DNA of 64,000 nt from a virus (IMGVR_UViG_3300041407_000207:52090-116089); one strand, 5' to 3'; counted from the stretch's first letter, positions 28,243 through 64,000 are shown. Made by a program: numbers and translations. The notes: generated by a model not told the origin, from the sequence alone.

Positions 28243-29202
28243 ATGTCTCAATTCGGTCAACCACCTCTCGCCGCTTTTCTCCCGCTAAGGGCTGGTCAAA
28301 ACCTGTCCGACTTGCCTGATAAACCTGCGGCTCTTGCAAATCTCGGGACGCTGAGTACTTCAGATATCATGATGAACTCCGTCCCAATAGGCACCATCAT
28401 CCCATTCTGGGGTAACACTGCTCCAGTAGGATATTTGCCATGTAACGGACAAACTGTCAACTCTGGTACTTTTCCTGACCTTGTTACTTTTCTAGGTGGT
28501 GGCAGTTCACAGGCGCTTCCGGATCTTCGTGGAGAATTCCTCCGTGGATGGGATAATGGTCGTGGGACGGATTTGGGCAGAGCTATTAAAACTGCTCAAG
28601 CAGATGCCCTTAAAAACCACTTCCACTATTTGCCAACCGAAAGCGGTGCGGGCTCGACTTTTGATCCAGCAGGTATAGTTCCGACTATAGTCCTTAAAGA
28701 TGCCCCCGCAGATTGGGTAACAAGAGTAGCAAGTGACAACAATATTTTCGGAACCCCAGCAGGTACGGTAAGAACGTATAGCCAAAGTGCTGACGTAGAG
28801 ACCCGACCTCGCAACATCTCAGTTCTCTACTGCATGAAAGCCTACGGAGCTTTGGTAAACACCTCTACTGCCAATATAGGCAACGTTCTTACCGAACTCA
28901 GTCAATGTACTAAGTTGACTCAATTTGAAGTTTCTCTTTCAGGAAACGGATACCAAAAATTTCCAAACGGTTTGATTATGCAGTGGGGTACGACTTATAT
29001 AAATGCTACAACTGGCTCCGTAACTTTCCCTATAGTTTTCCCAAGTGCATGTACATCAGTAATGACTAATAAACAAACTACTTCGGATGCCCGTAGAACA
29101 AGTACTAGCGCAGCCACCACTGCCGGATTTTCAATATACGGTTGGTCGGGTGCTTCTGCAGCGAACATAGATACTGCCTACTGGATGGCCATAGGATACT
29201 AA
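28243..29202 (+). CDS. tail fibre protein paralog 2 with tail-collar motif, 319 aa
   Basis: N-terminus MSQFGQPP...DLPDKPAALANLG. LPDLRGEFLRGWDNGRGTDLGRAIKTAQADA identical to paralog 1. Confidence 0.7.
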   Translation: MSQFGQPPLAAFLPLRAGQNLSDLPDKPAALANLGTLSTSDIMMNSVPIGTIIPFWGNTAPVGYLPCNGQTVNSGTFPDLVTFLGGGSSQALPDLRGEFLRGWDNGRGTDLGRAIKTAQADALKNHFHYLPTESGAGSTFDPAGIVPTIVLKDAPADWVTRVASDNNIFGTPAGTVRTYSQSADVETRPRNISVLYCMKAYGALVNTSTANIGNVLTELSQCTKLTQFEVSLSGNGYQKFPNGLIMQWGTTYINATTGSVTFPIVFPSACTSVMTNKQTTSDARRTSTSAATTAGFSIYGWSGASAANIDTAYWMAIGY

Positions 29203-29211
29203 GGAAAAATC

Positions 29212-30189
29212 ATGTCTGATTACTTCGGCCAGTCTCCGGACGGCTATCAAAAACCACTCTACGCTGCTAGTAATTTCAGTGATGTAGTAGATAAGCCTGC
29301 AGCCCTTGTTAACCTCGGTGCAGCTTCGGCGGACGACGTTCTAAAAGCAGCAAACCCAATCGGCACCATCATTGCCTTCTACGGGAGTGTTGCCCCGTAC
29401 GGCTACCTCCCTTGCTCGGGTCAAACCGTCTCTAGTTCTACTTTCCCAAGCTTAGTTACTTTCTTGGGCGGAACTACTTCGGCAACTCTTCCGGATCTTC
29501 GGGGGGAATTCCTCCGTGGATGGGATAATGGTAGAGGGATCGATACGGGTCGCACAATTCGAAGTAACCAGAAAGGATCTCTCCTCTATGGAAATGACGA
29601 TAACGGAGCAGAGGTACATGGACTAAATAGCATCAGTGCTAATAGGGCTGGACTTGGATGGGACGTACCTACTATAACGGAATATTCTGGGGTAGGAACC
29701 TATACCAATAGCGGAGTAATAGTACCTGGAAGTGTTTTATTTTCGGCTGCACATTACGGTACTTCCCGCCCACGAAACGTTTCGGTCCTCTACTGCATAA
29801 AAGCCTACGATTCTCCAGTTAACGCAGGTATTTTGAACGTTGCTACTCTGGCTAGTGAAATGGCTCTTAAAACTGCTCTTGCGGATTTCACGGGTACTAA
29901 TCAGACAAAAGCCAATATTGGTTACCAAAAACTTCCAGGAGGAATGATTATTCAATGGGGTGAATCCGTTACTACGAGCGGGACTGGAAATTTGGTTTTC
30001 CCAATAGCTTTCCCGACTGCAGCTGCGCAATTTATCGCAACTGCAACGGCATCTTCACCGGCTAACTATATTGTTACCTGCGGTTCACTAAGCCCTTCAA
30101 ATATCTCGGTATTTACCACAGGAGCAGTAGCTGGATCAACCCCAGTAGCTATCGCGATAGGCTATCGTTGGGTAGTTCTAGGCTATTAA
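29212..30189 (+). CDS. tail fibre protein paralog 3 with tail-collar motif, 325 aa
   Basis: N-terminus MSDYFGQSP..VVDKPAALVNLG. LPDLRGEFLRGWDNGRGIDTGRTIRSNQ. Confidence 0.7.
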   Translation: MSDYFGQSPDGYQKPLYAASNFSDVVDKPAALVNLGAASADDVLKAANPIGTIIAFYGSVAPYGYLPCSGQTVSSSTFPSLVTFLGGTTSATLPDLRGEFLRGWDNGRGIDTGRTIRSNQKGSLLYGNDDNGAEVHGLNSISANRAGLGWDVPTITEYSGVGTYTNSGVIVPGSVLFSAAHYGTSRPRNVSVLYCIKAYDSPVNAGILNVATLASEMALKTALADFTGTNQTKANIGYQKLPGGMIIQWGESVTTSGTGNLVFPIAFPTAAAQFIATATASSPANYIVTCGSLSPSNISVFTTGAVAGSTPVAIAIGYRWVVLGY

Positions 30190-37598: not shown

Positions 37599-38576
37599 TT
37601 ACAGTCCTCGTTTGGCAAGAGCTTTATCTTGGTGGCTACTCCCGTGAAGGAAATCCACCCAACGTTCAAGTTCACAGACGCCACCTGCGGCGTTAACGTG
37701 GCCACCCCCTTCGAACATCTTGGCCATTTGCGACACATCTACTGAATGAGCAGCACCCTGCTTGCTGCGCATGCTCAGAGCTACTTCCCCACCACGAGTA
37801 GCATTGTAGGCAATCACGAAAGGAACTTCGTGACGGTCGTACAGGTACTGGCAAACTTCGGACTGGTAGCACGAGGCATTTACTACGATGCCGCCACCAT
37901 AACCCTGGACTTCAAGATAACGGTAGGAGCTGGCCATCTTTTTGATCTGGGTATCCATCTCCTTGCAGAGAAAGGATCCTGCCTTGATACACTCTTCGGG
38001 AAAGAGACTGAAATCGTAGATTGCGAGTAGGTATGACGCCGGGTCATTGGTTTCTGCCGATGCCGACATCCACGCGATAACTTCTCTAGTCCTAGGCATC
38101 GCCCAAGTCCAGAGATCACGATCTTCTACGTGAAGAGCGAGGTTCGGTATCCCCGAAGGGTTCTCAACGCCTTTACGGAAATACTCCCATGCCAAACGAG
38201 CACCAGATTTCGTCATATCGAAAATCAGATCAAGGCCCTTCATCCCTTCCAACTGTTTCGCATCATCGCGAGCAGTTTTGTGATGGTCTAGGATAACTAC
38301 CTTGATCTCTACTGAGAGTAGATCCTGAACCACTACAGGCTTAGGACAGAAGTCCACAAAAATAATCTGCTCAACATTTTGTGCCAGCGCCAATTGGTAC
38401 GGTGCTTTTGGATCTTCTGCGAAGAATCCATCCCAGTCAGACTGGTTGTAGCCGATAGGGATCAACCCTTCTTTTTCATCACAGTCCAATCGACCTTCAC
38501 GAATTGCTTCCAGAGCTGCCGCAGCAGCCATGGTCCCGTCGAAGCAATGAGAGTGATAAAACACTACTGTTTTCAT
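37599..38576 (-). CDS. DHH-DHHA1 phosphoesterase (NrnA-like nanoRNase/pAp phosphatase family), 325 aa
   Basis: Motif I YHSHCFDGT (DHH-family Asp cluster). Motif III ILDHHK. DHHA1 GGGH motif (MFEGGGHVNAAG). Confidence 0.75.
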   Translation of the reverse strand: MKTVVFYHSHCFDGTMAAAAALEAIREGRLDCDEKEGLIPIGYNQSDWDGFFAEDPKAPYQLALAQNVEQIIFVDFCPKPVVVQDLLSVEIKVVILDHHKTARDDAKQLEGMKGLDLIFDMTKSGARLAWEYFRKGVENPSGIPNLALHVEDRDLWTWAMPRTREVIAWMSASAETNDPASYLLAIYDFSLFPEECIKAGSFLCKEMDTQIKKMASSYRYLEVQGYGGGIVVNASCYQSEVCQYLYDRHEVPFVIAYNATRGGEVALSMRSKQGAAHSVDVSQMAKMFEGGGHVNAAGGVCELERWVDFLHGSSHQDKALAKRGL

Positions 38577-46614: not shown

Positions 46615-47196
46615 CTACTGAACTTTCCAGTTCTTAAGATTTTCGTAACTTAGGGGGTGAAGTTCCGATTTATAAAACTCCGCAAGTTCCTCCAAGTACG
46701 TTGATTTCATTTTTAAATACGATGCCCCGGCCTCGTCCTCATTTACGAAATACTGACAACGCCTCTTACCGTTACCTACTCTAATTTTTGCTATGAACCT
46801 CTTATCCCGGTTACACCAGTGAACCCCAACATATCTGGAATTTTTGCAAACGTCAGGGACTATTATTGAGCTGTTCACTATTGCCGGGACAAGATCGCAG
46901 GTTTCCGGCCCGTAAATTTTATTACCTGGATACTTTAAATCTTTATCAATTTGATATCCCTTTTTCCCATAGTTTTTGTGCTCGGTATACCACTTTGCAA
47001 AAACTTGGAAGTGATGCCAAGGCTCTACGACAGAACACCCAACATAAGTTGGTAGCTCTCGTTGATAGTTTTCGTCATAGCATCTGGATATCATATCAAA
47101 CCAAGTATTGTACTCCTTGGTATGCTTACCGTTTTCACAACTGGCGTAGAGGCCCCTCCCCAGGACCCCCACACCTTTAACAAGTTTTTCTCTCAC
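46615..47196 (-). CDS. HNH/AP2-domain homing-endonuclease-like protein, 193 aa
   Basis: C-terminal AP2-type DNA-binding segment YVGVHWCNRDKRFIAKIRVGNGKRRCQYFVNEDEAGASY. N-terminal NTWFDMISRCYDEN...YVGCSV box typical of HNH-AP2 endonucleases. Confidence 0.4.
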   Translation of the reverse strand: MREKLVKGVGVLGRGLYASCENGKHTKEYNTWFDMISRCYDENYQRELPTYVGCSVVEPWHHFQVFAKWYTEHKNYGKKGYQIDKDLKYPGNKIYGPETCDLVPAIVNSSIIVPDVCKNSRYVGVHWCNRDKRFIAKIRVGNGKRRCQYFVNEDEAGASYLKMKSTYLEELAEFYKSELHPLSYENLKNWKVQ

Positions 47197-48056
47197 TTTT
47201 TACCTACGTCAAGGAATGGTACCGCGCTACTAGGAATCATAGTGGTTGGCAGTACTCCATTCCATTTTTCTACGCGAGTAAGGTCTACCAGATTTTGGTT
47301 TTGAGCCAGAGCTTTGGCCTTGACTTCGATAGCATACGCGTCTGCTTCACCGCGCATGCGAGTAGCCGTAGCCTCCGCAGTTGCTTTTGCCACCGTTGCT
47401 TCCGCTTCCGCAGTAGCCCGGTTTACGTTCTGGAGGTTGGTCTCGCCTTGACGCAAGGTTTCGTTTTTCTGGGTAAGAATCTCGACATTCTTCTCCATCA
47501 TTTTGCGGATGTTGCCTTCATACGAATCATCGAAGTCAATATTCTCAACCTGTACAGAGTCAACGACCAGAGGTCCTACAAGAGACTCCCGAACAGATTT
47601 CTCGATGCTCGCACCGAATGCCACCCGCTTAACTACAGAATCCGCTGCGGTGTATTGACCGAAAACGTTTTCAACTTGGGTAGGAACCTGGCGTTCGATC
47701 AGACGACTTTGCAAGCCTTCCAAAGAAGAAAACTTGGAATAGACGTTGGCCACCTCGGCTTCCGGTACATGATACGAGACCGAGACTCGCAAAGTAGCCG
47801 TTTGCTGGTCTTTGGAATACGCAGTCACGCCCGTGAAAGCAATGCTTTGGTTTTGCGTAGAAATAAAGACTACGCTCTGAACGAAAGGCATCTTCACATG
47901 CAGGCCCGGCTCGGCGATGCCGGTAACTTTGCCGTTGGTAAGAATCACTCCACGCTCACGGTCATTGACCGTGTACATGCCGCTGAACACGGCAGAGGCG
48001 ATGATGACGGCGAGAATCGCCAGGAGAATGTTGCGGGTAGACATATGGTTAATCAC
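47193..48056 (-). CDS. SPFH/band-7 (HflC/HflK/prohibitin-like) membrane protein, 287 aa
   Basis: N-terminal transmembrane segment. RGVILTNGKVTGIAEPGLHVKMPFVQSVVFISTQ matches the band-7 core. C-terminal coiled coil. Confidence 0.65.
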   Translation of the reverse strand: MINHMSTRNILLAILAVIIASAVFSGMYTVNDRERGVILTNGKVTGIAEPGLHVKMPFVQSVVFISTQNQSIAFTGVTAYSKDQQTATLRVSVSYHVPEAEVANVYSKFSSLEGLQSRLIERQVPTQVENVFGQYTAADSVVKRVAFGASIEKSVRESLVGPLVVDSVQVENIDFDDSYEGNIRKMMEKNVEILTQKNETLRQGETNLQNVNRATAEAEATVAKATAEATATRMRGEADAYAIEVKAKALAQNQNLVDLTRVEKWNGVLPTTMIPSSAVPFLDVGKK

Positions 48057-49124: not shown

Positions 49125-49730
49125 CTACACCATAGTTTTGAGAATCTGAGCCACGTTCTCCGCATCGCTCAGAGCTCGGTGATGTTGGCCGATGAACTCA
49201 AGCTTCTTGTACTCGATGGCCTTGTTCAGACCGAAGCCGTTTTTCTTACCCAGGAGCTTGCTGAACCACACTTTCAGGTTGAAGTGATTGTGGGGCTCAA
49301 GGAGGGGGCTGAGTCCATGAAGAACGCCGTCCTGAATGAAAATGTTCTTGTCGAACGCACCCCAGGAACACCAGCAAAAATCATCACCGAAACGAGCAGT
49401 GAATGCTTTGAGCAAGGTCAACGCCCATACGTAGGTACGACCTTCGTCAACTTGCTCTTGAGTGATGTGAGTCAACTCTTTGCAGAAGGGAGTTAACGTG
49501 GTGTGAATCGTGGGTTTGATAAAGAACTCAACCCGTTCGATTACCTCCATAGTATCCCGGTCGAGAAGGACGCCACCGAACTCGATGACCTCCATCTCTT
49601 CTCTCGGGACCGAGGCATCGTTAGAACAGGTGGCTTCTACGTCTACACAGAAGATATACTTTTTGAGCAGACGATTGAACTGCACTTGTTTTTGAGCCAG
49701 ATCCATAGATACCTCAGAGCAATAAGCCAA
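49125..49730 (-). CDS. DEDDh 3'-5' exonuclease (DnaQ/RNase T-like), 201 aa
   Basis: Exo I FCVDVEATC (D-x-E). Exo III GQHHRALSDAENVAQIL (H-x4-D). Confidence 0.55.
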   Translation of the reverse strand: MAYCSEVSMDLAQKQVQFNRLLKKYIFCVDVEATCSNDASVPREEMEVIEFGGVLLDRDTMEVIERVEFFIKPTIHTTLTPFCKELTHITQEQVDEGRTYVWALTLLKAFTARFGDDFCWCSWGAFDKNIFIQDGVLHGLSPLLEPHNHFNLKVWFSKLLGKKNGFGLNKAIEYKKLEFIGQHHRALSDAENVAQILKTMV

Positions 49731-54070: not shown

Positions 54071-55819
54071 TCACGCCGCCATAGGAAGAGATTCCGTCAG
54101 GTTTGTACGCAGCGATGTCATCGTCGCTTCCGAGAGGACTTGACTGTTACGCAGCACACAGTTCAAATCCCCGTTGTAGCCGACCGGCTTACCTTCGACG
54201 AGTTCATACTCGTTGTCTTGATCGAGTTCAAGAGACAACCAGCCTTTCGCAGACTTTTTGCCAGGGTCGGTCTTCGGCGCTTTGTAGACGTCGATCTTCA
54301 TGTTGCCTACTTCGCCATAGGTGAGCTTCATTGCGAAGCCCAACGAATCTCGAGTCAGGTACTGGAGACTGTAGCTGCCTACGCCTACCACGATGTTTTC
54401 CGCAGAGAAGCCCATTTCCATCAAACGTTGCAGAATTGCTTCGAAACGCTGGATGGTGATGGAGTCGCCGTAGATCATGCGGATGTGTGGGTCCAGGACT
54501 TTGAAACCCTTGGAGTTCACAGTGCCGCCGAATACGTTCCACAGATGTTGGACAGTACCGGTCTCTTCTACCGTGGGAGTGGTAGGTTCGAACTGAGTTA
54601 CTGTTTTGCCGTCCATGTAGTAGAACTGTCTGTCTTTGCGGTTCCATTCGATGGAGACGGTGTAGCGATACACTTGACCTTTCCAACGAGCCAGGCCAGA
54701 AACTTCGCTTTCGCCATGCTGGCCGTGTTCAGTTTCGTCTTGGACTTTTTCAGTAACGTAGTCCAGTACCCAACCGCTAGCGTGTTTCTCAGTCTCGGCT
54801 TCATCTCCGATTTCAAAGATTTCAGCGGTTCCGCAGATCACTTCGATAGGGACGCCAGTATCCGGACGAACTACGAATGGGCCCCCTTCACGAGCCATGA
54901 TCTTGTCTTTGAGACGAGGCAGGGCGTATTCCAGCATGCCGTAATAGTCGTAGCTGTCCATAACGAAGCTGATGGGGCCGACGTTGTCCAGGTAGTCAGA
55001 TAGGAAGGCAATTTCTGCTTCCAGCAGTGAACAGCCACGAACAGCTGCGATCATCTGAATGTTGAGGGTGGTTAGAGAGTGCTCGGTGGCCATGATCGAA
55101 CCGAAGTCCGCCTTGGTTGCACCGTACTCATGCATTGCAGCCAAGCAGCCAGGGATGTTATCCGAACCACTGAACGCAGCCAGGAAAGGAGCACCAGTTT
55201 TGTAGCCAGCAGTCATCCCGGTAAGTCCCCGGAGACTGAAGTCGTGACACTGGTACTTAACGTAGCCATTGTCGTCTGCAGTCAGTGCTGCGTACTTCTC
55301 AGCAACGATGCGGTATTCACGAGCAGCAGTGGCTACGGTACTTGGATACCACAGCTCGTTACTGAAGTGATCCTCCATGTAGCTTGCAAGCCACGCAAAG
55401 TCGTCATGCGTGTTGGTCACCAGCATGATCGGGGTGTTTGCTTTTACTACTCGGCCTTCTTCTACTGCATGGACTTCGATAGGCAAATAGCCAAGAGCGT
55501 GCAGATCCGAAAGACGAGTGAGGTCTGCGTTCGGAATGGTCGCCTCGATCAATGGCCGAATCACTTCTTCAACTTCGTCCCACGAGTCTTCGAAGAACAA
55601 GTTCCAAGCATGGTTGATAGCGCACATCCCCTGGAGAATGCCCGCTGCGACGATCTTACCGTCGTACATCGAGCTGCCTTGGAAGTGCTTGGTATTTCGA
55701 GGAGTAAAGTTACCTTGACCCTTCGTGTAGCCTTTTGGGTACAGACCTGGGTGACAGAACTTGTAAGCGTCACAGAGGATGGCTGCGTACAGTTTTGCTG
55801 GGGGGGTACTCATTCGCAT
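54071..55819 (-). CDS. nicotinamide phosphoribosyltransferase-family enzyme (Nampt/NadV or the NARP1 Namat variant), 582 aa
   Basis: MDSYDYYG and VVRPDTGVP match Nampt VSDSYDIY and IIRPDSGNP. IRMIYGDSITIQRF...VGVGSYSLQYLTRD matches LRVIQGDGVD...FGSGGALLQKLTRD. C-terminal KAPKTDPGKKSAKGWLSL matches KDPVADPNKRSKKGRLSL. Confidence 0.85.
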   Translation of the reverse strand: MRMSTPPAKLYAAILCDAYKFCHPGLYPKGYTKGQGNFTPRNTKHFQGSSMYDGKIVAAGILQGMCAINHAWNLFFEDSWDEVEEVIRPLIEATIPNADLTRLSDLHALGYLPIEVHAVEEGRVVKANTPIMLVTNTHDDFAWLASYMEDHFSNELWYPSTVATAAREYRIVAEKYAALTADDNGYVKYQCHDFSLRGLTGMTAGYKTGAPFLAAFSGSDNIPGCLAAMHEYGATKADFGSIMATEHSLTTLNIQMIAAVRGCSLLEAEIAFLSDYLDNVGPISFVMDSYDYYGMLEYALPRLKDKIMAREGGPFVVRPDTGVPIEVICGTAEIFEIGDEAETEKHASGWVLDYVTEKVQDETEHGQHGESEVSGLARWKGQVYRYTVSIEWNRKDRQFYYMDGKTVTQFEPTTPTVEETGTVQHLWNVFGGTVNSKGFKVLDPHIRMIYGDSITIQRFEAILQRLMEMGFSAENIVVGVGSYSLQYLTRDSLGFAMKLTYGEVGNMKIDVYKAPKTDPGKKSAKGWLSLELDQDNEYELVEGKPVGYNGDLNCVLRNSQVLSEATMTSLRTNLTESLPMAA

Positions 55820-55830
55820 TGGGCTACTCC

Positions 55831-56670
55831 TTAGTAGTTTTCACGGGTTACGTTGAGGATACGGAGGTTACCTTCGCCTTGCAGCTCACGATGGTAACTG
55901 TTGGTGGAGATTACTTCGTCGTAGATACCGGTAACGACGGCAGTCCCCTTGGAGAACAGACCGTGGGTCACTGCCAAGCTTACCGAAGCAGCGCCCTGTT
56001 CTTTCAGGGAGTGATACAGCGGCACGAATGTACCGCAGCCATCACCGATATCATCCAGGACCAGCAGAGTACGACCTTCGACAGTATCGTTGACCCGGGT
56101 TCCGGAGATAGAACCAGTTGCGAGGTCACGAACCTTGGTGCAGTGAATTACGCCAGCCGCACCTACTTTTCTGGCGAACGATTCCGCCTTCTTAGCAGCA
56201 CCACCATCTGGAGCTGCGATATAGACTTCACGCCACGAGGTATAGATATCACGGAAGATATCGAACTGGGTCACAACTTCCAGGCGGTTGAACAGAGCCG
56301 ATGTAACCTCGCTGTGAGGGTCCAGGATCTTCACGCTGGCAAAGTTACAGGCGTTGATATGCTTAGCCACCACGGCGATGCTGAGAGGCTCACCTGGGTT
56401 GCAAACACGGTCTTGTCGGGCGTATGGCATGTACGGGATGAAGGCAGAGACGTCTGCACGAGGATAGACTCGACGAACAGCGTCCTCGATAAACAGCAGG
56501 TTCAAGAGATCGCCCTGAGTAGTGAGTCGAGCTACAATTTCGACCGACTCTACTTTCTCTGGATAGAGACCTCCGTCCTGGATTTGAGGAACTACTTCAC
56601 CACCTGGAAAGTGAATGTAGGTGATTTCTTCGGTGCAGTTGCCTTTGCGCAGATAAATAGTGCCTTTCAT
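55831..56670 (-). CDS. ribose-phosphate pyrophosphokinase-family enzyme (Prs, or the ADPR-pyrophosphorylating Adps variant), 279 aa
   Basis: IPYMPYARQDR (Prs IPYFGYARQDR). PRPP-binding loop LVLDDIGDGCGT (Prs LVDDMIDTGGT). Confidence 0.75.
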   Translation of the reverse strand: MKGTIYLRKGNCTEEITYIHFPGGEVVPQIQDGGLYPEKVESVEIVARLTTQGDLLNLLFIEDAVRRVYPRADVSAFIPYMPYARQDRVCNPGEPLSIAVVAKHINACNFASVKILDPHSEVTSALFNRLEVVTQFDIFRDIYTSWREVYIAAPDGGAAKKAESFARKVGAAGVIHCTKVRDLATGSISGTRVNDTVEGRTLLVLDDIGDGCGTFVPLYHSLKEQGAASVSLAVTHGLFSKGTAVVTGIYDEVISTNSYHRELQGEGNLRILNVTRENY

Positions 56671-59794: not shown

Positions 59795-60418
59795 ATGTTT
59801 TACTTCGGAAATATCACTGCTCACGGTACTACCTATCGGTACCCCGAAAAACCTCCTCAAAATCTAATGTGGGTCGATCCAAAAGGTCATACCAACTTCT
59901 GGTGCTCCGTTCTCGGTGATTTGTCAGGATCAAGTTCTAGCCCTAGAACTGAGACTCGGGAAACACTACCATGCTCTGGAGACCCCTACAACTGGCGGGC
60001 AGGTGACGCCGTACACACTATGACCGGTAAGGTTCGTCTGGAGCTCATTCCGAGTTCTGGAAAAGTAATCATAGGTCAGATCCATGCTCACAAGGCTCCG
60101 AATCCATTCTTGATGGTTACTTGGTGGAACGGGGTTGCCCGGTTCGATTTTAGAGAAATTCCATCAGGCCTCTCCACTAAAGTTCTTTCCGTGCCATGTC
60201 CTCTAGGGGAATCGTTCGAGTACACGGTGAAAATAGATAAGTCTGGCCTGCTTACCGGTACTATCAACGGTCTCGGTTTCCAAACTCAAGTAAACCCCCT
60301 GTGGACTGCGTATCCGTTCTACTTTAAAGCAGGTGCGTACGTAATAGACAACTCTGGTCCTGCAACTGAAGGTGGCTGGGTAGTCTATGAGAACTTCGAA
60401 GTTTCTCACGTAATCTAA
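59795..60418 (+). CDS. polysaccharide lyase family 7 (alginate lyase-like) protein, 207 aa
   Basis: PL7 triad of blocks: RLEL (R-x-E-L); QIHAH (QIH); YFKAGAYVID (YFKAG-x-Y). Confidence 0.6.
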   Translation: MFYFGNITAHGTTYRYPEKPPQNLMWVDPKGHTNFWCSVLGDLSGSSSSPRTETRETLPCSGDPYNWRAGDAVHTMTGKVRLELIPSSGKVIIGQIHAHKAPNPFLMVTWWNGVARFDFREIPSGLSTKVLSVPCPLGESFEYTVKIDKSGLLTGTINGLGFQTQVNPLWTAYPFYFKAGAYVIDNSGPATEGGWVVYENFEVSHVI

Positions 60419-60420
60419 AA

Positions 60421-60444
60421 AAGGGCCGAAAGGCCCTTATCGTT
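60421..60444. terminator. hairpin terminator
   Basis: aaaaGGGCC-gaaa-GGCCCtt. Confidence 0.5.
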
Positions 60445-60748
60445 CTGCATCAAATGCTTGAAGTACTAAGGTCATGCTGACGAGTGATTTTTTACGGCTC
60501 AAGTCAGTTATCTCAACCCGCCTCAAGAAATCACTCTCTACCTTCCTGTTCCAGTAGTATTGCATGAGGTCGCTCTCGCCGCTCGGCCTGACTCTTGCAA
60601 ACTTGATTACGTTGTCTCTTAGAGATAGTTTTTTAAAGATAAGAATATAGTTTCTATCGGTTTCATGTCTTTGAGAAACTGCGATCTCTATATTTTGCGC
60701 AGAACCCCTCTCAGTGAAAAGTTCATTCAAAAATCTGAAAAGTTTCAA
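60437..60748 (-). CDS. hypothetical small protein, 103 aa
   Basis: ORF. N-terminal FRFLNELF. Confidence 0.35.
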   Translation of the reverse strand: MKLFRFLNELFTERGSAQNIEIAVSQRHETDRNYILIFKKLSLRDNVIKFARVRPSGESDLMQYYWNRKVESDFLRRVEITDLSRKKSLVSMTLVLQAFDAER

Positions 60749-61071
60749 TCGCTACTCTCCCGTGTATTTACCAGGGTCACAATTATCTTATTATTACTCC
60801 CTATCCTGCCAATTTTCGAAGCCTCTCTGCCAATAGCTTTTACGCAATAAGAACCATAAACACCTTGGCGAGTCTTACTATCGAACCAATGAAATGAAGC
60901 ATTCTCCCGTTTACCACTGGAACTTATCCGGGTACATTCCAAGTGGTATCTGCCGAGATGTCGTATTTCGTATTTATTTGCAAGAGAAGAACTTACGAAA
61001 GTTATCTTGGAGATATCCCCACCAAGGTCTATAAACTTACTGAGAAAATCTCGGAAGTAAAGTTGGTTCAT
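60745..61071 (-). CDS. hypothetical small protein, 108 aa
   Basis: ORF. Shares the ASFHWFDSK / ARFDWAKY block with the next gene. Confidence 0.35.
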   Translation of the reverse strand: MNQLYFRDFLSKFIDLGGDISKITFVSSSLANKYEIRHLGRYHLECTRISSSGKRENASFHWFDSKTRQGVYGSYCVKAIGREASKIGRIGSNNKIIVTLVNTRESSD

Positions 61072-61096
61072 CGTTGATTCCTCGGTATCTTATGGG

Positions 61097-61402
61097 CTAA
61101 CGGTGTTTATGTCCATGTAGGACTACTCGTACTTTGCTACCACTCCGAGAAATCAACTCCCCAACCCCGCGTGCCACCGTCACTTCACCTACCGTATGAC
61201 TTTTTATATTTGAATATTTCGCCCAATCGAATCTTGCAGTGTCTTTTCGAGTTGGACTCGTGCAGTCCAATCTCATACCCGCGCCGGATCCAGAAATACC
61301 ATGAGGGATATACCAATTCTCCATCCACGTCGCTTTGAATATAATGGAATTCAGAGGGATACCCTCTGCCGTCAATAGGTTGATCAACTGGTCAAAGTTC
61401 AT
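61097..61402 (-). CDS. hypothetical small protein, 101 aa
   Basis: ORF. Confidence 0.35.
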   Translation of the reverse strand: MNFDQLINLLTAEGIPLNSIIFKATWMENWYIPHGISGSGAGMRLDCTSPTRKDTARFDWAKYSNIKSHTVGEVTVARGVGELISRSGSKVRVVLHGHKHR

Positions 61403-61421
61403 TACTAATCCCCAGACAAAA

Positions 61422-61440
61422 GAAAAGCCCTCACTCGGAG
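61422..61440. terminator. bidirectional hairpin terminator
   Basis: GCCCTC-actcg-GAGGGC flanked by T/A runs. Confidence 0.5.
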
Positions 61441-61596
61441 GGCTCGTTTATTTCTGATTTATCCCATTGTCGCCCGTACTTGTGGCTCTTGATAGAGCCA
61501 GAGACTCTGACGTGGATTTTCCCCATGCCAAACCTTCTATACGTCTGACAACCTTTTCCGTACACTCTTTTAGATCCGTATGGAAACATTCCTACC

Positions 61597-61836
61597 TCAT
61601 ACTAATTTACCGAAGCTAATTACCCATCTACTGCCCTCCTCAATAGGAGTAACGTAGTGATACGAGTCATCAGCTCTGAAAAGAAACATCCTACCCCATG
61701 ACCAGATCTTCTTATTACAGACGAACTGCCCACCTTTCTTAGCAGAGACCAGTTCTATGTTGAACCGGTATAGCTTCTTACCTTTTGACGGATCTTTATG
61801 CTTTGGGATGTAGGAGCCGGTCTTGTAATGGAACAA
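61597..61836 (-). CDS. hypothetical small basic protein, 79 aa
   Basis: ORF. Confidence 0.35.
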   Translation of the reverse strand: MFHYKTGSYIPKHKDPSKGKKLYRFNIELVSAKKGGQFVCNKKIWSWGRMFLFRADDSYHYVTPIEEGSRWVISFGKLV

Positions 61837-61962
61837 GTAACAATCAAAGCCGAATCGCTTACTGAACGCTAGGGTGAAGATTCGATACCCAGTGTCGTGG
61901 ACGTCGCTACCCCAACGCCAGAGACGAAGTGTAGGCTTGGTTAATTTGCGGGTCTATACGGA

Positions 61963-62020
61963 TTTATGCATGATCGTCAATTCCTAATCGTTTTTATGCA
62001 GGGATGATCGTTTTTGTGCA
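61963..62020. repeat. three spaced copies of GATCGT...TTTT(A/G)TGCA
   Basis: tttatgcatgatcgt (61963-61977), atcgtttttatgca (61987-62000), atcgtttttgtgca (62007-62020). Lie between tRNA-Arg and the next minus-strand gene. Confidence 0.4.
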
Positions 62021-62095
62021 AATGGTGTCTCTACCCAGACACGATCTGGGAGTCCGTGGTTTTAGAGGCCTGGACCGACCATCTAGAGACGAACT

Positions 62096-62172
62096 TGGTA
62101 ACCGGTAAGGGATTCGAACCCATAACCTACGAGGTAGAAGCTCGTAGCTCTATCCAGTTGAGCTAACCGGTT
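62096..62172 (-). tRNA. tRNA-Arg(UCU)
   Basis: Acceptor AACCGGT/ACCGGTT. D-arm GCTC-AACTGGAT-AGAGC. Anticodon stem ACGAG/CTCGT with loop CTTCTAC. T-arm ATGGG-TTCGAAT-CCCTT (one mismatch). Encoded CCA. Confidence 0.7.
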
Positions 62173-62177
62173 TTTGA

Positions 62178-62573
62178 TTACTTTACAAGCCTCAGGAACG
62201 AAGGCTTTGGTACCGTGGCCGCTTCTTCCGTTGGAGCAAAGACCGGTTCTTCACTATCAGGCTCGAGCTCATCAAATATCATGCCCTGACCAGTTTCTCT
62301 AGAGTAAACGGCCCGCACTGCTTGAATAGGGATTACAAGGGTATGTTTAACGCCCTTGAACCCCCCTATGAAAGAAACTATCTCATTGCCCATGTGGAGA
62401 TTACTAACTGCTCCAGGAGAGAGGTTCAGGACAATCTCACCGTCGTTATCAAATCCACTTGGAACTTCTACTCCTTTCATTTCAGTGTTGACCAGAATGT
62501 GTGGAGTTTCGTTGTTATCGTTGATCCACTCATATAGAGCTCGGATCAGATACGGGCGACTAGATGTCATGGT
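62178..62573 (-). CDS. sspB: SspB-like ClpXP specificity-enhancing adaptor, about 131 aa
   Basis: RPYLIRALYEWINDNNETPHILVN...DGEIVLNLSPGAVSNL...IPIQAVRAVYSRETGQGMIF is collinear with E. coli SspB (RPYLLRAFYEWLLDNQLTPHLVVD...DGQIVLNIAPRAVGNL...VPLAAVLAIYARENGAGTMF). C-terminal KPSFLRLVK resembles the ClpX-binding tail RPALRVVK. Start placed at the internal Met (62573) to avoid overlap with tRNA-Ser. Confidence 0.75.
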   Translation of the reverse strand, partial: TMTSSRPYLIRALYEWINDNNETPHILVNTEMKGVEVPSGFDNDGEIVLNLSPGAVSNLHMGNEIVSFIGGFKGVKHTLVIPIQAVRAVYSRETGQGMIFDELEPDSEEPVFAPTEEAATVPKPSFLRLVK

Positions 62574-62592
62574 AGATACTCTTGTGTAAAGG

Positions 62593-62682
62593 TGGAGGAA
62601 CAATCCAGATTCGAACTGGAGGAGCTATTTCTAACCCGACGATTTAGCAAACCGTTACCTTAAGCCACTCGGTCATTGTTCC
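62593..62682 (-). tRNA. tRNA-Ser(GCU), type II
   Basis: Acceptor GGAACAA/TTGTTCC. Anticodon stem ACGGT/ATCGT with loop TTGCTAA. Long variable arm. T-arm CCAG-TTCGAAT-CTGG. Discriminator U. Encoded CCA. Confidence 0.65.
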
Positions 62683-62687
62683 AAATA

Positions 62688-62775
62688 TGGAGGCGGGTTA
62701 GGGATTCGAACCCTAGGAGCCTTTCGACCCGACTGATTTCAAGTCAGTTACCATAGACCACTCGGTCAACCCGCC
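62688..62775 (-). tRNA. tRNA-Ser(UGA), type II
   Basis: Acceptor GGCGGGT/ACCCGCC. Anticodon stem ACTGA/TCAGT with loop CTTGAAA. Long variable arm. T-arm TAGGG-TTCGAAT-CCCTA. Encoded CCA. Confidence 0.7.
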
Positions 62776-62796
62776 AGAAAAAGTAGGACTATTTCA

Positions 62797-62815
62797 AGTC
62801 CTGAAAGAACATAGT
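62797..62815 (-). terminator. hairpin plus T-run just upstream of the tRNA cluster
   Basis: Minus strand AGGACTTGAAATAGTCCTACTTTTTCT. Confidence 0.4.
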
Positions 62816-62953
62816 TGATCAGACTACCGTTACAGCGAAACTATACATAAGGAAACTCCTCGTGAGGTGATGCCACCTGTACGTCCACTGCCACACGTTG
62901 TTCTAACTAAAACCAATACTGAGTCCGCAATAACCGGTTGCTACAGTAGTGGA

Positions 62954-63145
62954 TCACTGCTTTAGAGAGTTCATCCACTCTCGAATACTTTCAGGAGTCG
63001 CAACTCGGTTGCGTTCAAGCTCTCGTCTGCCAGCTTCTATCTGCTCTGGCGTCATCTGCTTGATTTCCCATAACATTCTGCACTCTTCACAATCAGCGGT
63101 TGGTTTCCGCATTACCTTGTAAGTAGGGTGTTTAGAACATTTCAT
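62954..63145 (-). CDS. small zinc-ribbon protein, 63 aa
   Basis: MKCSKHP ... CEEC. Confidence 0.4.
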   Translation of the reverse strand: MKCSKHPTYKVMRKPTADCEECRMLWEIKQMTPEQIEAGRRELERNRVATPESIREWMNSLKQ

Positions 63146-63159
63146 ATTAGTTACCTAAT

Positions 63160-63236
63160 TGGTGGGCCCTGAGTGACTTGAACACTCGACCAAGCGATTA
63201 TGAGTCGCCTGCTCTGACCAACTGAGCTAAGGGCCC
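63160..63236 (-). tRNA. tRNA-Met(CAU) (elongator/initiator/Ile2 not distinguishable by eye)
   Basis: Acceptor GGGCCCT/AGGGCCC. D-arm GCTC-AGTTGGTC-AGAGC. Anticodon stem GGCGA/TCGCT with loop CTCATAA. T-arm GAGTG-TTCAAGT-CACTC. Encoded CCA. Confidence 0.7.
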
Positions 63237-63244
63237 CAACTTCT

Positions 63245-63538
63245 TCAACTGTAATTGACGTAGAACTTATAGTCAACGCTTATAACGAAATCCTTGTCAC
63301 CCGTAATGAAGTTATGAAGTACTGGTACGTGAGCTTTGATCAAGTTCATCCAGCGAACATTGAACTCAATAGATTCCAGAGGGAGTAGCTCTATACTTCT
63401 GTGGAAGTACGGATCTATCGACTCTTTAAGCTTGGCTACTGCGTCTTCATCAGTTACTTGATAAGAGTTAGTGAAGATTACCTTAAGAGTATGACCTTCG
63501 CCAGTAGCCATGTAGTCATATACTAAAACTGATTTCAT
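63245..63538 (-). CDS. hypothetical protein, 97 aa
   Basis: ORF. Confidence 0.4.
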   Translation of the reverse strand: MKSVLVYDYMATGEGHTLKVIFTNSYQVTDEDAVAKLKESIDPYFHRSIELLPLESIEFNVRWMNLIKAHVPVLHNFITGDKDFVISVDYKFYVNYS

Positions 63539-63750
63539 TACGCGTTACCTGTACGGCACGCATCTACTTTCAAACCTTCTACTACACCAATTGATTGGCC
63601 GAAGGTGAGATTGCCACAAGTATTGCCGCGAGCGTAGACCACCGTGATTACAGAGGTAGGATTGTACCCTGCAAGAGTAACGACCTGCTCGTAGGAGATC
63701 TTGTCTTCTTCAGAGAGTTCGTGCTCTTTGCCATTGATCGAAATCTTCAT
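63538..63750 (-). CDS. hypothetical small protein, 70 aa (possible beta-grasp-like)
   Basis: MKISINGKEHEL...VTLAGYNP pattern faintly ThiS-like. ATGA coupling to the downstream gene. Weak. Confidence 0.35.
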   Translation of the reverse strand: MKISINGKEHELSEEDKISYEQVVTLAGYNPTSVITVVYARGNTCGNLTFGQSIGVVEGLKVDACRTGNA

Positions 63751-63793
63751 GTGAACCTCTTCTATCTAAAGTAGTTGAGGGCCGAAGCCCTCG

Positions 63794-63862
63794 AACAAAC
63801 AGGGCTCGAACCTGCAACTCACGACAATTCGTGCATTCTACCGATTGAAATATTGTTCTTCC
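63794..63862 (-). ncRNA. tRNA-like RNA with a truncated anticodon arm, own promoter and a 3' UUCG hairpin
   Basis: D-loop AATCGGTAGAAT. T-arm GCAGG-TTCGAGC-CCTGT. 6-bp acceptor GAACAA/TTGTTC with a 1-72 mismatch. The anticodon region folds only as CACGA-ATTG-TCGTG (4-nt loop), so there is no canonical anticodon loop. Followed by GAGGGC-TTCG-GCCCTC (63777-63792). Confidence 0.4.
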
Positions 63863-63872
63863 TACAAAGTAC

Positions 63873-63880
63873 TTATACCA
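63873..63880 (-). promoter_or_regulatory. extended -10 box TGGTATAAGTAC driving the tRNA-like RNA
   Basis: Motif family. Predicted transcription start about 63865, at the 5' end of the tRNA-like element. Confidence 0.45.
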
Positions 63881-64000
63881 GCTACTTACCTGAGATACGA
63901 AAACCAACCCACCAGAGATCGAGTCGTACATACCAAAGGGTCTTTTCCAGACCTCCTCGTAATCCAATCTTTCGATTCTGTTCGTCCATGGGGATCTTGG

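What the first reader, a model, noticed from the sequence alone, without database searches (positions are those of the whole stretch)
62178..62573. Phage-encoded SspB-like ClpXP adaptor
About 100 residues are collinear with the E. coli SspB substrate-binding domain: RPYL(L/I)RA(F/L)YEW..DN..TPH, DG(Q/E)IVLN, P.AV.NL and AV.A.Y.RE.G.G..F. The protein ends with a ClpX-docking-like tail, LRLVK.

Host SspB delivers ssrA-tagged and other substrates to ClpXP. A phage copy could retarget host proteolysis, for example by accelerating the destruction of tagged proteins or of a specific host factor, or by shielding phage proteins through competition. It sits inside the tRNA cluster.
Basis: partly seen in the sequence, partly recalled or inferred. 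Interest (0 to 1): 0.6.

Follow-up and report, generated by a model that had tools for sequence, protein, structure and literature searches.

The report
Phage copy of SspB protease adaptor
A large uncultivated phage, probably of Pseudomonas, carries an intact copy of the bacterial SspB protein, which hands tagged proteins to the ClpXP protease; the call is correct, but phage SspB genes have been reported before and none has been tested.

Summary
Window 62178..62570 (minus strand, 130 aa) encodes a true SspB.

- Sequence: Pfam PF04386 E=3e-31. NCBIfam equivalog NF008769 scores 150.5 bits against a cut-off of 135. It is about 45% identical to E. coli SspB.
- Fold: the AlphaFold model superposes on SspB crystal structures at 0.7 Å over 100 residues.
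- Tail: residues 101-130 are disordered and end in LRLVK. L, V and K of that motif are invariant in 62 of 62 homologues. E. coli has LRVVK.
- Context: the window is phage DNA (large terminase, tail fibres). The gene lies between tRNA-Ser (22-nt gap) and tRNA-Arg (5-nt gap), with no sspA.
- Conservation: seven related phage contigs carry the gene. Six keep the same site. dN/dS is 0.05-0.17.
- Origin: the nearest cellular relatives are Pseudomonadaceae SspBs (about 60%), closer than other phage SspBs. This is one of several independent captures.

Most likely it is a working adaptor that tethers to host ClpX and delivers ssrA-tagged proteins. A decoy role or a new cargo cannot be excluded by computation.

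Phage SspBs are already annotated or published (pf16 gp18, 2017; Erwinia phage RAY gp039, 2023; PHROG 8945). This is a new member of a known kind, with moderate to low interest.

The parts
62178..62570 (-). sspB coding sequence, 130 codons plus a TAA stop
   Evidence: ORF and translation. Pfam PF04386 E=3.1e-31. NCBIfam NF008769 150.5 bits against a cut-off of 135. PHROG 8945 'SspB-like' E=1.6e-19.
62271..62570 (-). Substrate-binding and dimerisation domain, residues 1-100: helix 5-18 followed by seven strands
   Evidence: AlphaFold2 block-mean pLDDT is 93-97 for residues 11-100. The top 13 Foldseek PDB hits are all SspB, with rmsd 0.7 Å over 100 residues to 1ox9_A and 1yfn_A. dN/dS is 0.05-0.16 within the phage clade.
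62211..62270 (-). Disordered acidic, proline-rich linker, residues 101-120
   Evidence: pLDDT is below 50 for residues 105-120 and no secondary structure is predicted. Sequence and length vary among homologues.
62181..62210 (-). C-terminal ClpX-binding (XB-type) tail, residues 121-130, PKPSFLRLVK
   Evidence: L126, V129 and K130 are invariant in 62 of 62 aligned homologues. An L-x-[VIL]-[VI]-K end is found in 113 of 151 diverse representatives. The E. coli tail LRVVK was verified. The last 10 residues of SspB are the peptide that binds the ClpX N-domain (PMC3983244).
62571..62592 (-). 22-nt spacer between tRNA-Ser(gct) and the ATG, with a weak Shine-Dalgarno-like AAGAG at 62579-62583
   Evidence: The spacer CCYTTACACAAGAGTARCTAYY-ATG is conserved in the window and in L001, L002 and L005. 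There is no room for a promoter of its own.
62593..62682 (-). tRNA-Ser(gct), immediately upstream of sspB
   Evidence: ARAGORN. Rfam tRNA 48.1 bits.
62688..62775 (-). tRNA-Ser(tga)
   Evidence: ARAGORN. Rfam tRNA 54.9 bits.
62096..62172 (-). tRNA-Arg(tct), starting 5 nt after the sspB stop codon
   Evidence: ARAGORN. Rfam tRNA 63.1 bits. The same tight junction (5-10 nt) is seen in L001, L002, L005 and L007.
63160..63236 (-). tRNA-Met(cat), the upstream member of the same-strand tRNA cluster
   Evidence: ARAGORN. Rfam tRNA 69.7 bits. A promoter-like site at 63276-63248 (-) lies just upstream, but the number of such sites in the region is no higher than chance.

Best explanation
The gene encodes a functional SspB-type adaptor for the host ClpXP protease. 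An ancestor of this clade of large phages captured it from a gammaproteobacterial host, probably of the Pseudomonadaceae.

Shown here:
- The protein has the SspB substrate-binding and dimerisation domain, a short disordered linker, and the conserved C-terminal L-R-L-V-K module.
- It is kept under strong purifying selection in at least seven related phages.
- It is packed into a same-strand tRNA cluster, with 22-nt and 5-nt gaps.

Inferred:
- During infection it is transcribed together with the phage tRNAs and released by tRNA processing.
- The protein dimerises, and its two tails dock on the N-domains of host ClpX.
- Its body binds the N-terminal part of the host ssrA tag (or a similar peptide). 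Truncated tmRNA-tagged proteins are then delivered to ClpXP at low concentration and steered away from other proteases.
- With the tRNAs, it forms a translation-support and quality-control module. This module clears ribosome-rescue products and recycles amino acids while host mRNA is destroyed.
For: Family membership:
- Pfam 108.9 bits against a cut-off of 27. NCBIfam equivalog NF008769 150.5 bits against 135. PDB E. coli SspB E=2.7e-28.
- Fold: pLDDT block means 93-97 for residues 11-100. Foldseek top hits are all SspB, rmsd 0.7 Å over 100 residues, TM (target) 0.90-0.94.

Tail and linker:
- L126, V129 and K130 are invariant in 62 of 62 homologues. An XB-like end is present in 113 of 151 diverse representatives.
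- The 10 C-terminal residues of SspB bind the ClpX N-domain (PMC3983244).
- The linker is disordered. The total length of 130 aa lies inside the 124-148 aa range of the other aligned homologues.

Interface and groove landmarks from engineered PDB chains:
- The designed-heterodimer positions in 1zsz_C map to window L8, A11, L12, G69 and M97. All carry residues common in natural SspBs.
- The Cys used to cross-link the ssrA tag (1twb, Y44C) maps to window F40, so an aromatic residue is retained.
- All 20 columns invariant in the 62-sequence alignment are, by definition, retained in the phage protein.

Selection and conservation:
- dN/dS is 0.05-0.17 overall, with synonymous sites near saturation. 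The binding domain is at least as constrained as the linker and tail.
- The gene is conserved in seven related phage contigs (L001, L002, L005, L006, L007, L013, L014), six at the same site.

Phage origin:
- Large terminase, 52% identical to that of Salmonella phage Arash; virion and tail-fibre proteins.
- No sspA is present, whereas Pseudomonas sspB follows sspA.
Against: - No binding or degradation was, or could be, tested here.
- All seven members of the phage clade have Gly at residue 70. Arg is found there in 54 of 55 close homologues and 131 of 150 diverse ones. Smaller clade-specific changes are I88V, A90S, N93T and E102L. These could mean altered dimerisation or altered cargo.
- The held literature did not let me place residue 70 relative to the peptide groove. 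It abuts a designed dimer-interface position.
- The host, and therefore its ssrA tag and ClpX, are only inferred.
- Co-transcription with the tRNAs rests on spacing alone. Promoter-like sites in the region are no more frequent than chance (7 found, 5.7 expected).
- The host presumably already has its own SspB, so the benefit of a second copy is unexplained.
Confidence: 0.6

Rival explanations
1. Retargeting adaptor. The phage SspB docks on ClpX in the normal way, but its binding domain has drifted to deliver a different cargo chosen by the phage. Candidates are the cytoplasmic fragment of the anti-sigma factor RseA/MucA, which would change the envelope-stress and alginate response, or a host defence or regulatory protein.
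For: - Clade-specific substitutions occur at otherwise highly conserved positions: R70G in 7 of 7, plus I88V, A90S and N93T.
- In SspB, only the dimer interface and the ssrA groove are highly conserved (PMC9963277).
- E. coli SspB is known to deliver RseA as a second cargo through the same groove (1yfn title; PMC8138137 Table 1).
- The pf16 authors proposed an RseA-centred role for their phage SspB (PMC5587285).
- The phage also carries an alginate lyase. If the host is Pseudomonas, alginate biology matters to it.
Against: - Loss of the Arg is not unique. 19 of 150 diverse family representatives lack it, and most of them keep an XB tail.
- Lys at residue 72 is native to H. influenzae SspB, which binds ssrA.
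- Residue 70 lies next to a dimer-interface position rather than a demonstrated groove position.
- The rest of the domain is about 60% identical to Pseudomonadaceae SspBs.
- No candidate cargo was identified.
Confidence: 0.17
2. Competitor or decoy. Made in excess, the phage protein occupies the ClpX N-domains with its XB tail, or sequesters ssrA tags. This blocks host adaptors and N-domain-dependent substrates and so shields phage proteins from ClpXP.
For: [quoted passage not shown]
- The XB tail is strictly conserved in this clade.
- It is also kept in the independently acquired copies of pf16, UViG L009, jumbo phage L010 and Erwinia phage pEa_SNUABM_54.
- The pf16 authors suggested competitive inhibition.
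Against: - A decoy needs only the tail. Here the 100-residue binding and dimerisation domain is under equal or stronger purifying selection (dN/dS 0.05-0.16) than the linker and tail (0.08-0.39).
- The linker length is within the range of working cellular adaptors.
- Nothing suggests unusually high expression. The Shine-Dalgarno-like element is weak.
Confidence: 0.15
3. The gene is not a phage function. It is either a host gene on a mis-binned or chimeric contig, or a recently acquired, decaying passenger with no role.
For: The closest named homologues are cellular Pseudomonadaceae SspBs. The phage lineage has no cultured representative.
Against: - Seven contigs from different samples carry the gene among the same phage neighbours: SNF2 helicase, PhoH, PRPP synthetase, NAMPT and the tRNA set.
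- dN/dS is about 0.1, with synonymous sites near saturation.
- The cellular sspA-sspB arrangement is absent (searches compared).
- The window carries a terminase and tail fibres.
Confidence: 0.03

Closest known systems
Cellular SspB (stringent starvation protein B, the ClpXP specificity-enhancing factor) of gammaproteobacteria; structures 1OX9, 1OU8, 1YFN, 8ET3
   Same: - Same domain order: N-terminal helix plus beta-sandwich binding domain, disordered linker, C-terminal L-[RK]-[VIL]-V-K tail.
- 42-46% identical to E. coli SspB and about 60% to Pseudomonas cavernae SspB.
- rmsd 0.7 Å over 100 residues to the crystal structures.
- Passes the NCBIfam equivalog cut-off.
   Different: - It is encoded by a phage, without sspA, inside a tRNA cluster. 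Pseudomonas sspB follows petABC-sspA.
- Gly replaces the usual Arg at residue 70, and there are a few other clade-specific changes.
- The linker is much shorter than in E. coli (130 aa against 165 aa in total), although it is typical of Pseudomonas-type SspBs.
Pseudomonas phage pf16 gp18, reported in 2017 as the first phage SspB (PMC5587285)
   Same: It is phage-encoded and of similar size (128 aa). It keeps the XB tail (TLRVVK) and also lacks the conserved Arg (TAAFNGV). Its host is a Pseudomonas.
   Different: - It is only 57% identical to the window protein, which is closer to cellular Pseudomonas SspB (63%). The two were probably captured independently.
- pf16 is a T4-like phage unrelated to this one.
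- No tRNA lies within 4 kb of gp18.
- It has not been tested experimentally; only modelling and docking were done.
SspB-like proteins of jumbo and nucleus-forming phages: Erwinia phage RAY gp039 (PMC10299810), Erwinia phage pEa_SNUABM_54, Ralstonia phages FLC1-1B and FLC4-3B, Xanthomonas phage RTH11; PHROG 8945
   Same: All are phage-borne SspB homologues. The Erwinia copy and jumbo-phage contig L010 keep an XB-like end, LTIVK and LRVVK. RAY gp039 is cytoplasmic, as expected for a ClpXP adaptor.
   Different: They are much more divergent (28-44% identity). The Xanthomonas RTH11 copy has no XB-type end. None lies in a tRNA cluster.

Membership tests
SspB (Pfam PF04386; NCBIfam 'ClpXP protease specificity-enhancing factor') | Sequence match to the family profile above the curated threshold | tested here: met
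   Pfam 108.9 bits against a gathering score of 27, covering profile positions 2-119 of 156. NCBIfam NF008769 scores 150.5 bits against a cut-off of 135. The other eight SspB equivalog models match but fall below their own cut-offs.
SspB (Pfam PF04386; NCBIfam 'ClpXP protease specificity-enhancing factor') | Fold of the SspB substrate-binding domain (N-terminal helix packed on a beta-sandwich) | tested here: met
   AlphaFold2 model: mean pLDDT 83, block means 93-97 for residues 11-100. The 13 best Foldseek PDB hits are E. coli or H. influenzae SspB, with E down to 5.6e-14 and rmsd 0.7-1.1 Å over 100-103 residues. Alphaproteobacterial SspB orthologues come next.
SspB (Pfam PF04386; NCBIfam 'ClpXP protease specificity-enhancing factor') | C-terminal ClpX N-domain-binding (XB) peptide at the very end of the protein | tested here: met
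   The protein ends in SFLRLVK. L, V and K are invariant in 62 of 62 homologues. The pattern is found in 113 of 151 diverse representatives, and LRLVK itself in 3. E. coli LRVVK was verified. Actual binding to ClpX was not testable here.
SspB (Pfam PF04386; NCBIfam 'ClpXP protease specificity-enhancing factor') | Flexible, disordered linker between the binding domain and the XB peptide | tested here: met
   pLDDT is below 50 for residues 105-120 and no secondary structure is predicted after residue 98. The segment is rich in acidic residues and proline, and varies in length across homologues.
SspB (Pfam PF04386; NCBIfam 'ClpXP protease specificity-enhancing factor') | Homodimer formed through the N-terminal helix and adjacent strands | tested here: inconclusive
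   Positions redesigned in the 1ZSZ heterodimer map to window L8, A11, L12, G69 and M97, all with residues common in natural SspBs. The neighbouring residue 70 is Gly instead of the usual Arg. No multimer prediction or experiment was possible.
SspB (Pfam PF04386; NCBIfam 'ClpXP protease specificity-enhancing factor') | Peptide groove that binds the N-terminal part of the ssrA tag | tested here: inconclusive
   The position turned into Cys to cross-link the ssrA tag (1TWB, Y44C) corresponds to window F40, so an aromatic residue is kept. Family-invariant positions are retained. The full set of groove residues could not be obtained from the held literature. The host tag is unknown.
SspB (Pfam PF04386; NCBIfam 'ClpXP protease specificity-enhancing factor') | Stimulates ClpXP degradation of ssrA-tagged substrates | not testable with these tools
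   This needs a biochemical assay or genetic complementation.
Cellular sspAB operon | sspB lies immediately downstream of sspA (a GST-like protein) | tested here: not met
   In Pseudomonas, a GST-fold gene directly precedes sspB. In the window the upstream neighbours are two tRNA-Ser genes and small ORFs of 63, 97 and 70 aa. These ORFs gave no GST-domain hit in Pfam scans at E <= 0.01. This argues for a phage copy. It does not argue against membership of the SspB protein family.

The most novel reading that the evidence does not exclude
The phage clade has turned a captured SspB into a phage-controlled degradation switch. The gene is expressed as a tRNA-punctuated message, cut out of the tRNA precursor by RNase P and by 3' processing. 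Its remodelled surface (Arg70 to Gly and the neighbouring clade-specific changes) lets it deliver a cargo other than bulk ssrA-tagged proteins to host ClpXP. Candidates are a host defence protein or the MucA/RseA fragment. This would be a natural viral analogue of a targeted protein degrader.
Probability: 0.15. Interest if true: 0.65.

Novelty: new member of a known kind. Interest (0 to 1): 0.3.

Why it matters
No phage-encoded SspB has been tested experimentally. It is therefore unknown whether phages use the adaptor to speed clearance of ribosome-rescue products, to rewire stress signalling, or to protect their own proteins.

This clade is a clean test case. The protein is small and complete. 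It is conserved under strong purifying selection in several related phages, and it is physically coupled to the phage's tRNA set. That coupling points to a link between viral translation support and host proteolysis.

If the protein has an altered cargo, it would be a natural example of a virus redirecting a bacterial AAA+ protease through an adaptor. That would interest people working on phage-host conflict and on engineered protein degradation in bacteria. If it is simply a spare canonical SspB, it is an ordinary auxiliary gene.

Tried and rejected
- **Alternative start.** The TTG start at 62603 (141 aa) was rejected. It overlaps tRNA-Ser, and homologues begin at MTSS.
- **DNA search against phages.** A near-identity search of 61000-64000 against 50,697 phage records matched only the tRNA-Met gene, so there is no close cultured relative.
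- **IMG/VR scan.** A scan with the family alignment returned only three viral loci, none from this clade: pf16, a 44-kb UViG and a 290-kb jumbo phage. The clade was reached through the protein database instead.
- **Phage tmRNA.** I looked for a phage tmRNA that might pair with the adaptor. ARAGORN found none in the window or in L001-L007. Rfam found none above threshold.
- **Own promoter or terminator.** Promoter-like sites are no more frequent than chance. The 22-nt and 5-nt gaps leave no room for either element. One terminator-like call, 62620-62604, is the T-arm of tRNA-Ser.
- **Residue 70 and the groove.** I tried to learn from the literature whether E. coli Arg75 (window residue 70) lines the ssrA/RseA groove. 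The structural papers are not held, and text searches failed. As a substitute I used engineered PDB sequences as landmarks.
- **R70G as proof of new specificity.** This was considered and downgraded. 19 of 150 diverse family members also lack the Arg, and the Lys at +2 is native to H. influenzae SspB.
- **Single origin of phage SspBs.** This was considered and rejected. The window protein is closer to cellular Pseudomonas SspB than to any phage copy outside its clade.

Full report
**1. What is in the sequence**

On the minus strand an ORF runs from ATG 62568-62570 to the stop TAA at 62178-62180 and encodes 130 residues. A longer TTG-initiated version (62603) would start inside a tRNA gene. It is rejected, because all homologues begin MTSSRPY at the ATG.

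ARAGORN places four same-strand tRNA genes around the ORF:
- tRNA-Ser(gct), 62593-62682, 22 nt upstream of the ATG;
- tRNA-Arg(tct), 62096-62172, 5 nt after the stop;
- tRNA-Ser(tga) and tRNA-Met(cat), further upstream.

Rfam confirms these tRNAs.

**2. Is it SspB?**

Yes, by every test available.

Sequence:
- Pfam PF04386 (SspB): E=3.1e-31, 108.9 bits against a cut-off of 27.
- NCBIfam 'ClpXP protease specificity-enhancing factor' NF008769: 150.5 bits against a cut-off of 135. Eight sister models match below their own cut-offs.
- PHROG 8945 'stringent starvation protein SspB-like': E=1.6e-19.
- PDB: E. coli SspB (8et3_Y) at E=2.7e-28 over residues 2-119, and H. influenzae SspB at about 6e-27.

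Structure:
- An AlphaFold2 model built on 62 homologues has mean pLDDT 83, with block means of 93-97 for residues 11-100.
- It shows a helix (5-18) followed by seven strands. Beyond residue 100 it is disordered, with pLDDT below 50 for residues 105-120.
- Foldseek against the PDB returns only SspB structures as its 13 best hits. The rmsd is 0.7 Å over 100 residues to the SspB-ssrA complex (1ox9_A) and the SspB-RseA complex (1yfn_A). Alphaproteobacterial SspB orthologues come next, and below them nothing is significant.

**3. The tail and the linker**

The protein ends in ...PKPSFLRLVK. I verified that E. coli SspB ends in ...RPALRVVK by matching my recalled sequence 165/165 to PDB chain 8et3_Y.

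- In a 62-sequence alignment, L126, V129 and K130 are invariant.
- Among 150 diverse 50%-identity representatives, out of 2,783 family members found at E<=0.001, 113 of 151 sequences end in L-x-[VIL]-[VI]-K. LRLVK itself occurs three times.

The ten C-terminal residues of SspB are the 'XB' peptide. This peptide binds the ClpX N-domain. [quoted passage not shown] The phage protein's total length of 130 aa is shorter than E. coli's 165 aa. It still falls inside the 124-148 aa range of the other aligned homologues, mostly Pseudomonas-type SspBs.

**4. Is it really phage-encoded?**

The window contains:
- a large terminase (7917-9614; PHROG 675 E=3e-56), whose best cultured match is Salmonella phage Arash at 52% identity, followed by 186-kb Vibrio phages at 43%;
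- a virion structural protein;
- three paralogous tail-fibre genes with Collar and gp53-like C-terminal domains;
- a tail-fibre-like 739-aa protein;
- typical auxiliary genes: NAMPT, a PRPP-synthetase-like gene, PhoH and an SNF2 helicase.

The five closest SspB homologues in a 5.8-billion-protein collection (70-100% identity) are metagenomic. Two more distant clade members follow at 58-60% (P0006 and P0010). One hit (P0004) is 100% identical to the window protein over a truncated gene call and comes from a JGI metagenome.

I fetched contigs of up to 75 kb for six of these seven. They carry the same neighbours as the window: a metallophosphatase, a Phage_gp49_66 protein, the tRNA set, the SNF2 helicase, PhoH, the PRPP synthetase and NAMPT. 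In L001, L002, L005, L007 and L014 the gene occupies the same slot between tRNA-Ser and tRNA-Arg, with a 5-10 nt gap before tRNA-Arg. In L006 the three tRNAs are contiguous and sspB lies 213 nt downstream of tRNA-Arg.

By contrast, sspB in Pseudomonas genomes directly follows the GST-like sspA, downstream of the cytochrome bc1 genes. The window has no sspA next to the gene.

**5. Is it maintained by selection?**

I computed pairwise Nei-Gojobori estimates on the six clade genes.
- Overall dN/dS is 0.06-0.17, with synonymous sites near saturation (pS 0.54-0.85).
- The binding domain (residues 1-100) gives 0.05-0.16.
- The linker and tail give 0.08-0.39 where computable.

The gene is not a decaying passenger. 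The domain that binds cargo and dimerises is at least as constrained as the tail.

**6. Origin and host**

The best named hits are all Pseudomonadaceae: Pseudomonas cavernae, several Pseudomonas sp., Phytopseudomonas, Stutzerimonas and Atopomonas. They are about 60% identical over the full length and 64-69% over the domain.

In a pairwise matrix the window protein is:

| Compared with | Identity |
|---|---|
| P. cavernae SspB (cellular) | 63% |
| Pseudomonas phage pf16 | 57% |
| 44-kb viral contig (L009) | 49% |
| 290-kb jumbo-phage contig (L010) | 44% |
| Xanthomonas phage RTH11 | 33% |
| Erwinia phage pEa_SNUABM_54 | 29% |

Phage SspBs are therefore polyphyletic. This clade represents one of several independent captures.

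A second host clue is the PL7 alginate lyase at 59795-60418 (Pfam E=3e-31). Eleven of its 12 homologues in the phage collection are in Pseudomonas phages. The best, at 68% identity, is in the P. syringae phage phiK7A1. A Pseudomonas host is therefore likely but not shown.

**7. What differs from cellular SspB**

Comparing the seven clade members with 55 other homologues shows these differences.
- Residue 70 is Gly in 7 of 7 clade members and Arg in 54 of 55 others (E. coli R75).
- Residue 72 is Lys or Arg in the clade and Gly, Ser or Ala in the others.
- Milder changes are I88V, A90S, N93T and E102L.

I tested whether this marks a new specificity.
- In the broader set of 150 representatives, Arg is present in 131. 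Nineteen lack it, and most of those keep an XB tail.
- H. influenzae SspB, crystallised with the ssrA peptide, natively has Lys at the +2 position, NARFKGV.
- pf16's SspB also lacks the Arg.

I could not obtain the groove contact list from the held literature. Instead I used engineered PDB chains as landmarks.
- The designed heterodimer chain 1zsz_C differs from wild type at L12Y, A15G, Y16F, A73Q and V101M. These map to window L8, A11, L12, G69 and M97. Residue 70 therefore abuts the dimer interface.
- The chain that was disulfide-linked to the ssrA tag (1twb_A) carries Y44C. This maps to window F40, where an aromatic residue is kept.

The purpose of these substitutions is inferred from the PDB entry titles. 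The R70G change is thus a real clade signature of unknown consequence. It is not evidence of neofunctionalisation.

**8. Expression**

The gaps to the flanking tRNAs are 22 and 5 nt, which leaves no space for a promoter or terminator of the gene's own. The spacer CCYTTACACAAGAGTARCTAYY-ATG is conserved in four clade members and contains only a weak Shine-Dalgarno-like AAGAG.

Promoter-like sites in 60400-64000 are no more frequent than in shuffled sequence (7 against 5.7). One lies just upstream of tRNA-Met. Terminator-like hairpins on the minus strand at 61445-61425 and 60438-60421 lie downstream.

The inference is that sspB is transcribed as part of the tRNA precursor and freed by tRNA processing. 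This is untested.

**9. Mechanism and rivals**

The best-supported reading (confidence about 0.6) is a canonical adaptor. The protein forms a dimer, its two XB tails dock on the N-domains of host ClpX, and its binding domain holds the N-terminal part of the ssrA tag. Ribosome-rescue products are then degraded efficiently during infection. The physical coupling to the tRNA genes fits a translation-support module.

| Rival | Confidence | Main arguments |
|---|---|---|
| Retargeted cargo, e.g. the RseA/MucA fragment as the pf16 authors discussed (PMC5587285), or a defence protein | about 0.17 | Supported by the clade-specific substitutions and the alginate lyase. No cargo was identified. |
| Decoy that blocks ClpX N-domains | about 0.15 | Supported by the known inhibitory effect of the XB peptide. 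Disfavoured by strong selection on the whole binding domain. |
| Not a phage function (artefact or passenger) | about 0.03 | Contradicted by conservation, selection and context (sections 4 and 5). |

**10. Novelty**

Phage SspBs are already on record.
- pf16 gp18 was described in 2017 as the first (PMC5587285).
- Erwinia phage RAY gp039 was noted as a cytoplasmic SspB-like ClpXP adaptor in 2023 (PMC10299810).
- Xanthomonas phage RTH11 is annotated with the NCBI name.
- PHROGs has a family for them.

The collections searched turned up no functional experiment on any of them. New here are a further, independent capture in an uncultivated clade of large phages, its embedding in a tRNA operon, and evidence of strong purifying selection. 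That makes it a new member of a known kind. It is a correct and tidy finding that would not surprise a specialist, so I score interest at 0.3.

Noticed in passing
window 1840-3096 (-), 3470-4522 (-), 63538-63750 (-): A ThiF/E1-like protein (Pfam E=1.2e-14) and a prokaryotic JAB-domain protein (E=6.4e-9) lie side by side. A 70-aa ORF just upstream of the tRNA/sspB cluster gives a sub-threshold Multiubiquitin (PF14452) match: 22.2 bits against a cut-off of 24.5, E=1.6e-4. Its orthologue in L002/L003 is also flagged as a weak match. Together these suggest a phage-borne ubiquitin-like conjugation and deconjugation set. With SspB, that would be a second protein-fate module in this phage.
   Followed up: partly
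window 39140-40645 (-), 41810-41922 (-), 42166-42305 (-): A Ro60/TROVE protein with a vWA domain (Pfam E=8e-44) lies near two full-length but sub-threshold matches to the Y-RNA-like family YrlA (RF02553). They score 39.5 bits (E=5.7e-6) and 31.2 bits (E=1.4e-3) against a gathering score of 69. This is probably a phage Ro60 / Y-RNA module.
   Followed up: partly
window 54071-55819 (-), 55831-56670 (-): A nicotinamide phosphoribosyltransferase (PHROG 448 E=1e-141) lies next to a PRPP-synthetase-like gene. Together they form an NAD+ salvage pair, conserved in the related contigs.
   Followed up: no
window 59795-60418 (+): A PL7 alginate lyase (Pfam E=3e-31). Eleven of its 12 homologues in the phage collection are in Pseudomonas phages, the best being 68% identical in P. 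syringae phage phiK7A1. This is a clue to the host. The gene is present in L005 and L014 but absent from the same position in L001 and L002.
   Followed up: partly
window 63791-63859 (-): Rfam's tRNA model scores 43.1 bits here (gathering score 29, E=4.5e-7), but ARAGORN calls no tRNA. This may be a sixth, atypical tRNA or a tRNA-like element. It overlaps the mechanical ORF 63710-63967.
   Followed up: no
window 26565-27587, 28243-29202, 29212-30189 (+): Three paralogous tail-fibre genes, each with a Phage Tail Collar domain and a gp53-like C-terminal domain. They may be alternative receptor-binding proteins.
   Followed up: no
L006 3359-4228; L005 5889-6482; L014 2891-3482: The arrangement of the tRNA/sspB module varies within the clade. 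In L006 the order is Ser-Ser-Arg, with sspB 213 nt downstream of tRNA-Arg. In L005 and L014 ARAGORN does not call tRNA-Ser(gct), and sspB follows tRNA-Ser(tga) directly.
   Followed up: partly
L013 1501-1803 (JGI contig Ga0439466_0000325), equivalent to window 62178-62480: The public JGI gene call for this same gene (P0004) is truncated to 100 aa and starts at Met31. The caller presumably avoided the adjacent tRNA. The true N-terminal 30 residues, which include the dimerisation helix, are therefore missing from that database entry.
   Followed up: yes
window 47193-48056 (-), 38625-39095 (-), 49125-49730 (-), 37599-38576 (-), 45211-46047 (-), 61597-61836 (-): Other auxiliary genes: an SPFH/Band 7 protein, RNase H, an RNase T-like exonuclease, a DHH/DHHA1 phosphoesterase, an alpha/beta hydrolase, and a short 79-aa ORF downstream of tRNA-Arg that resembles a 2OG-Fe(II) oxygenase.
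   Followed up: no
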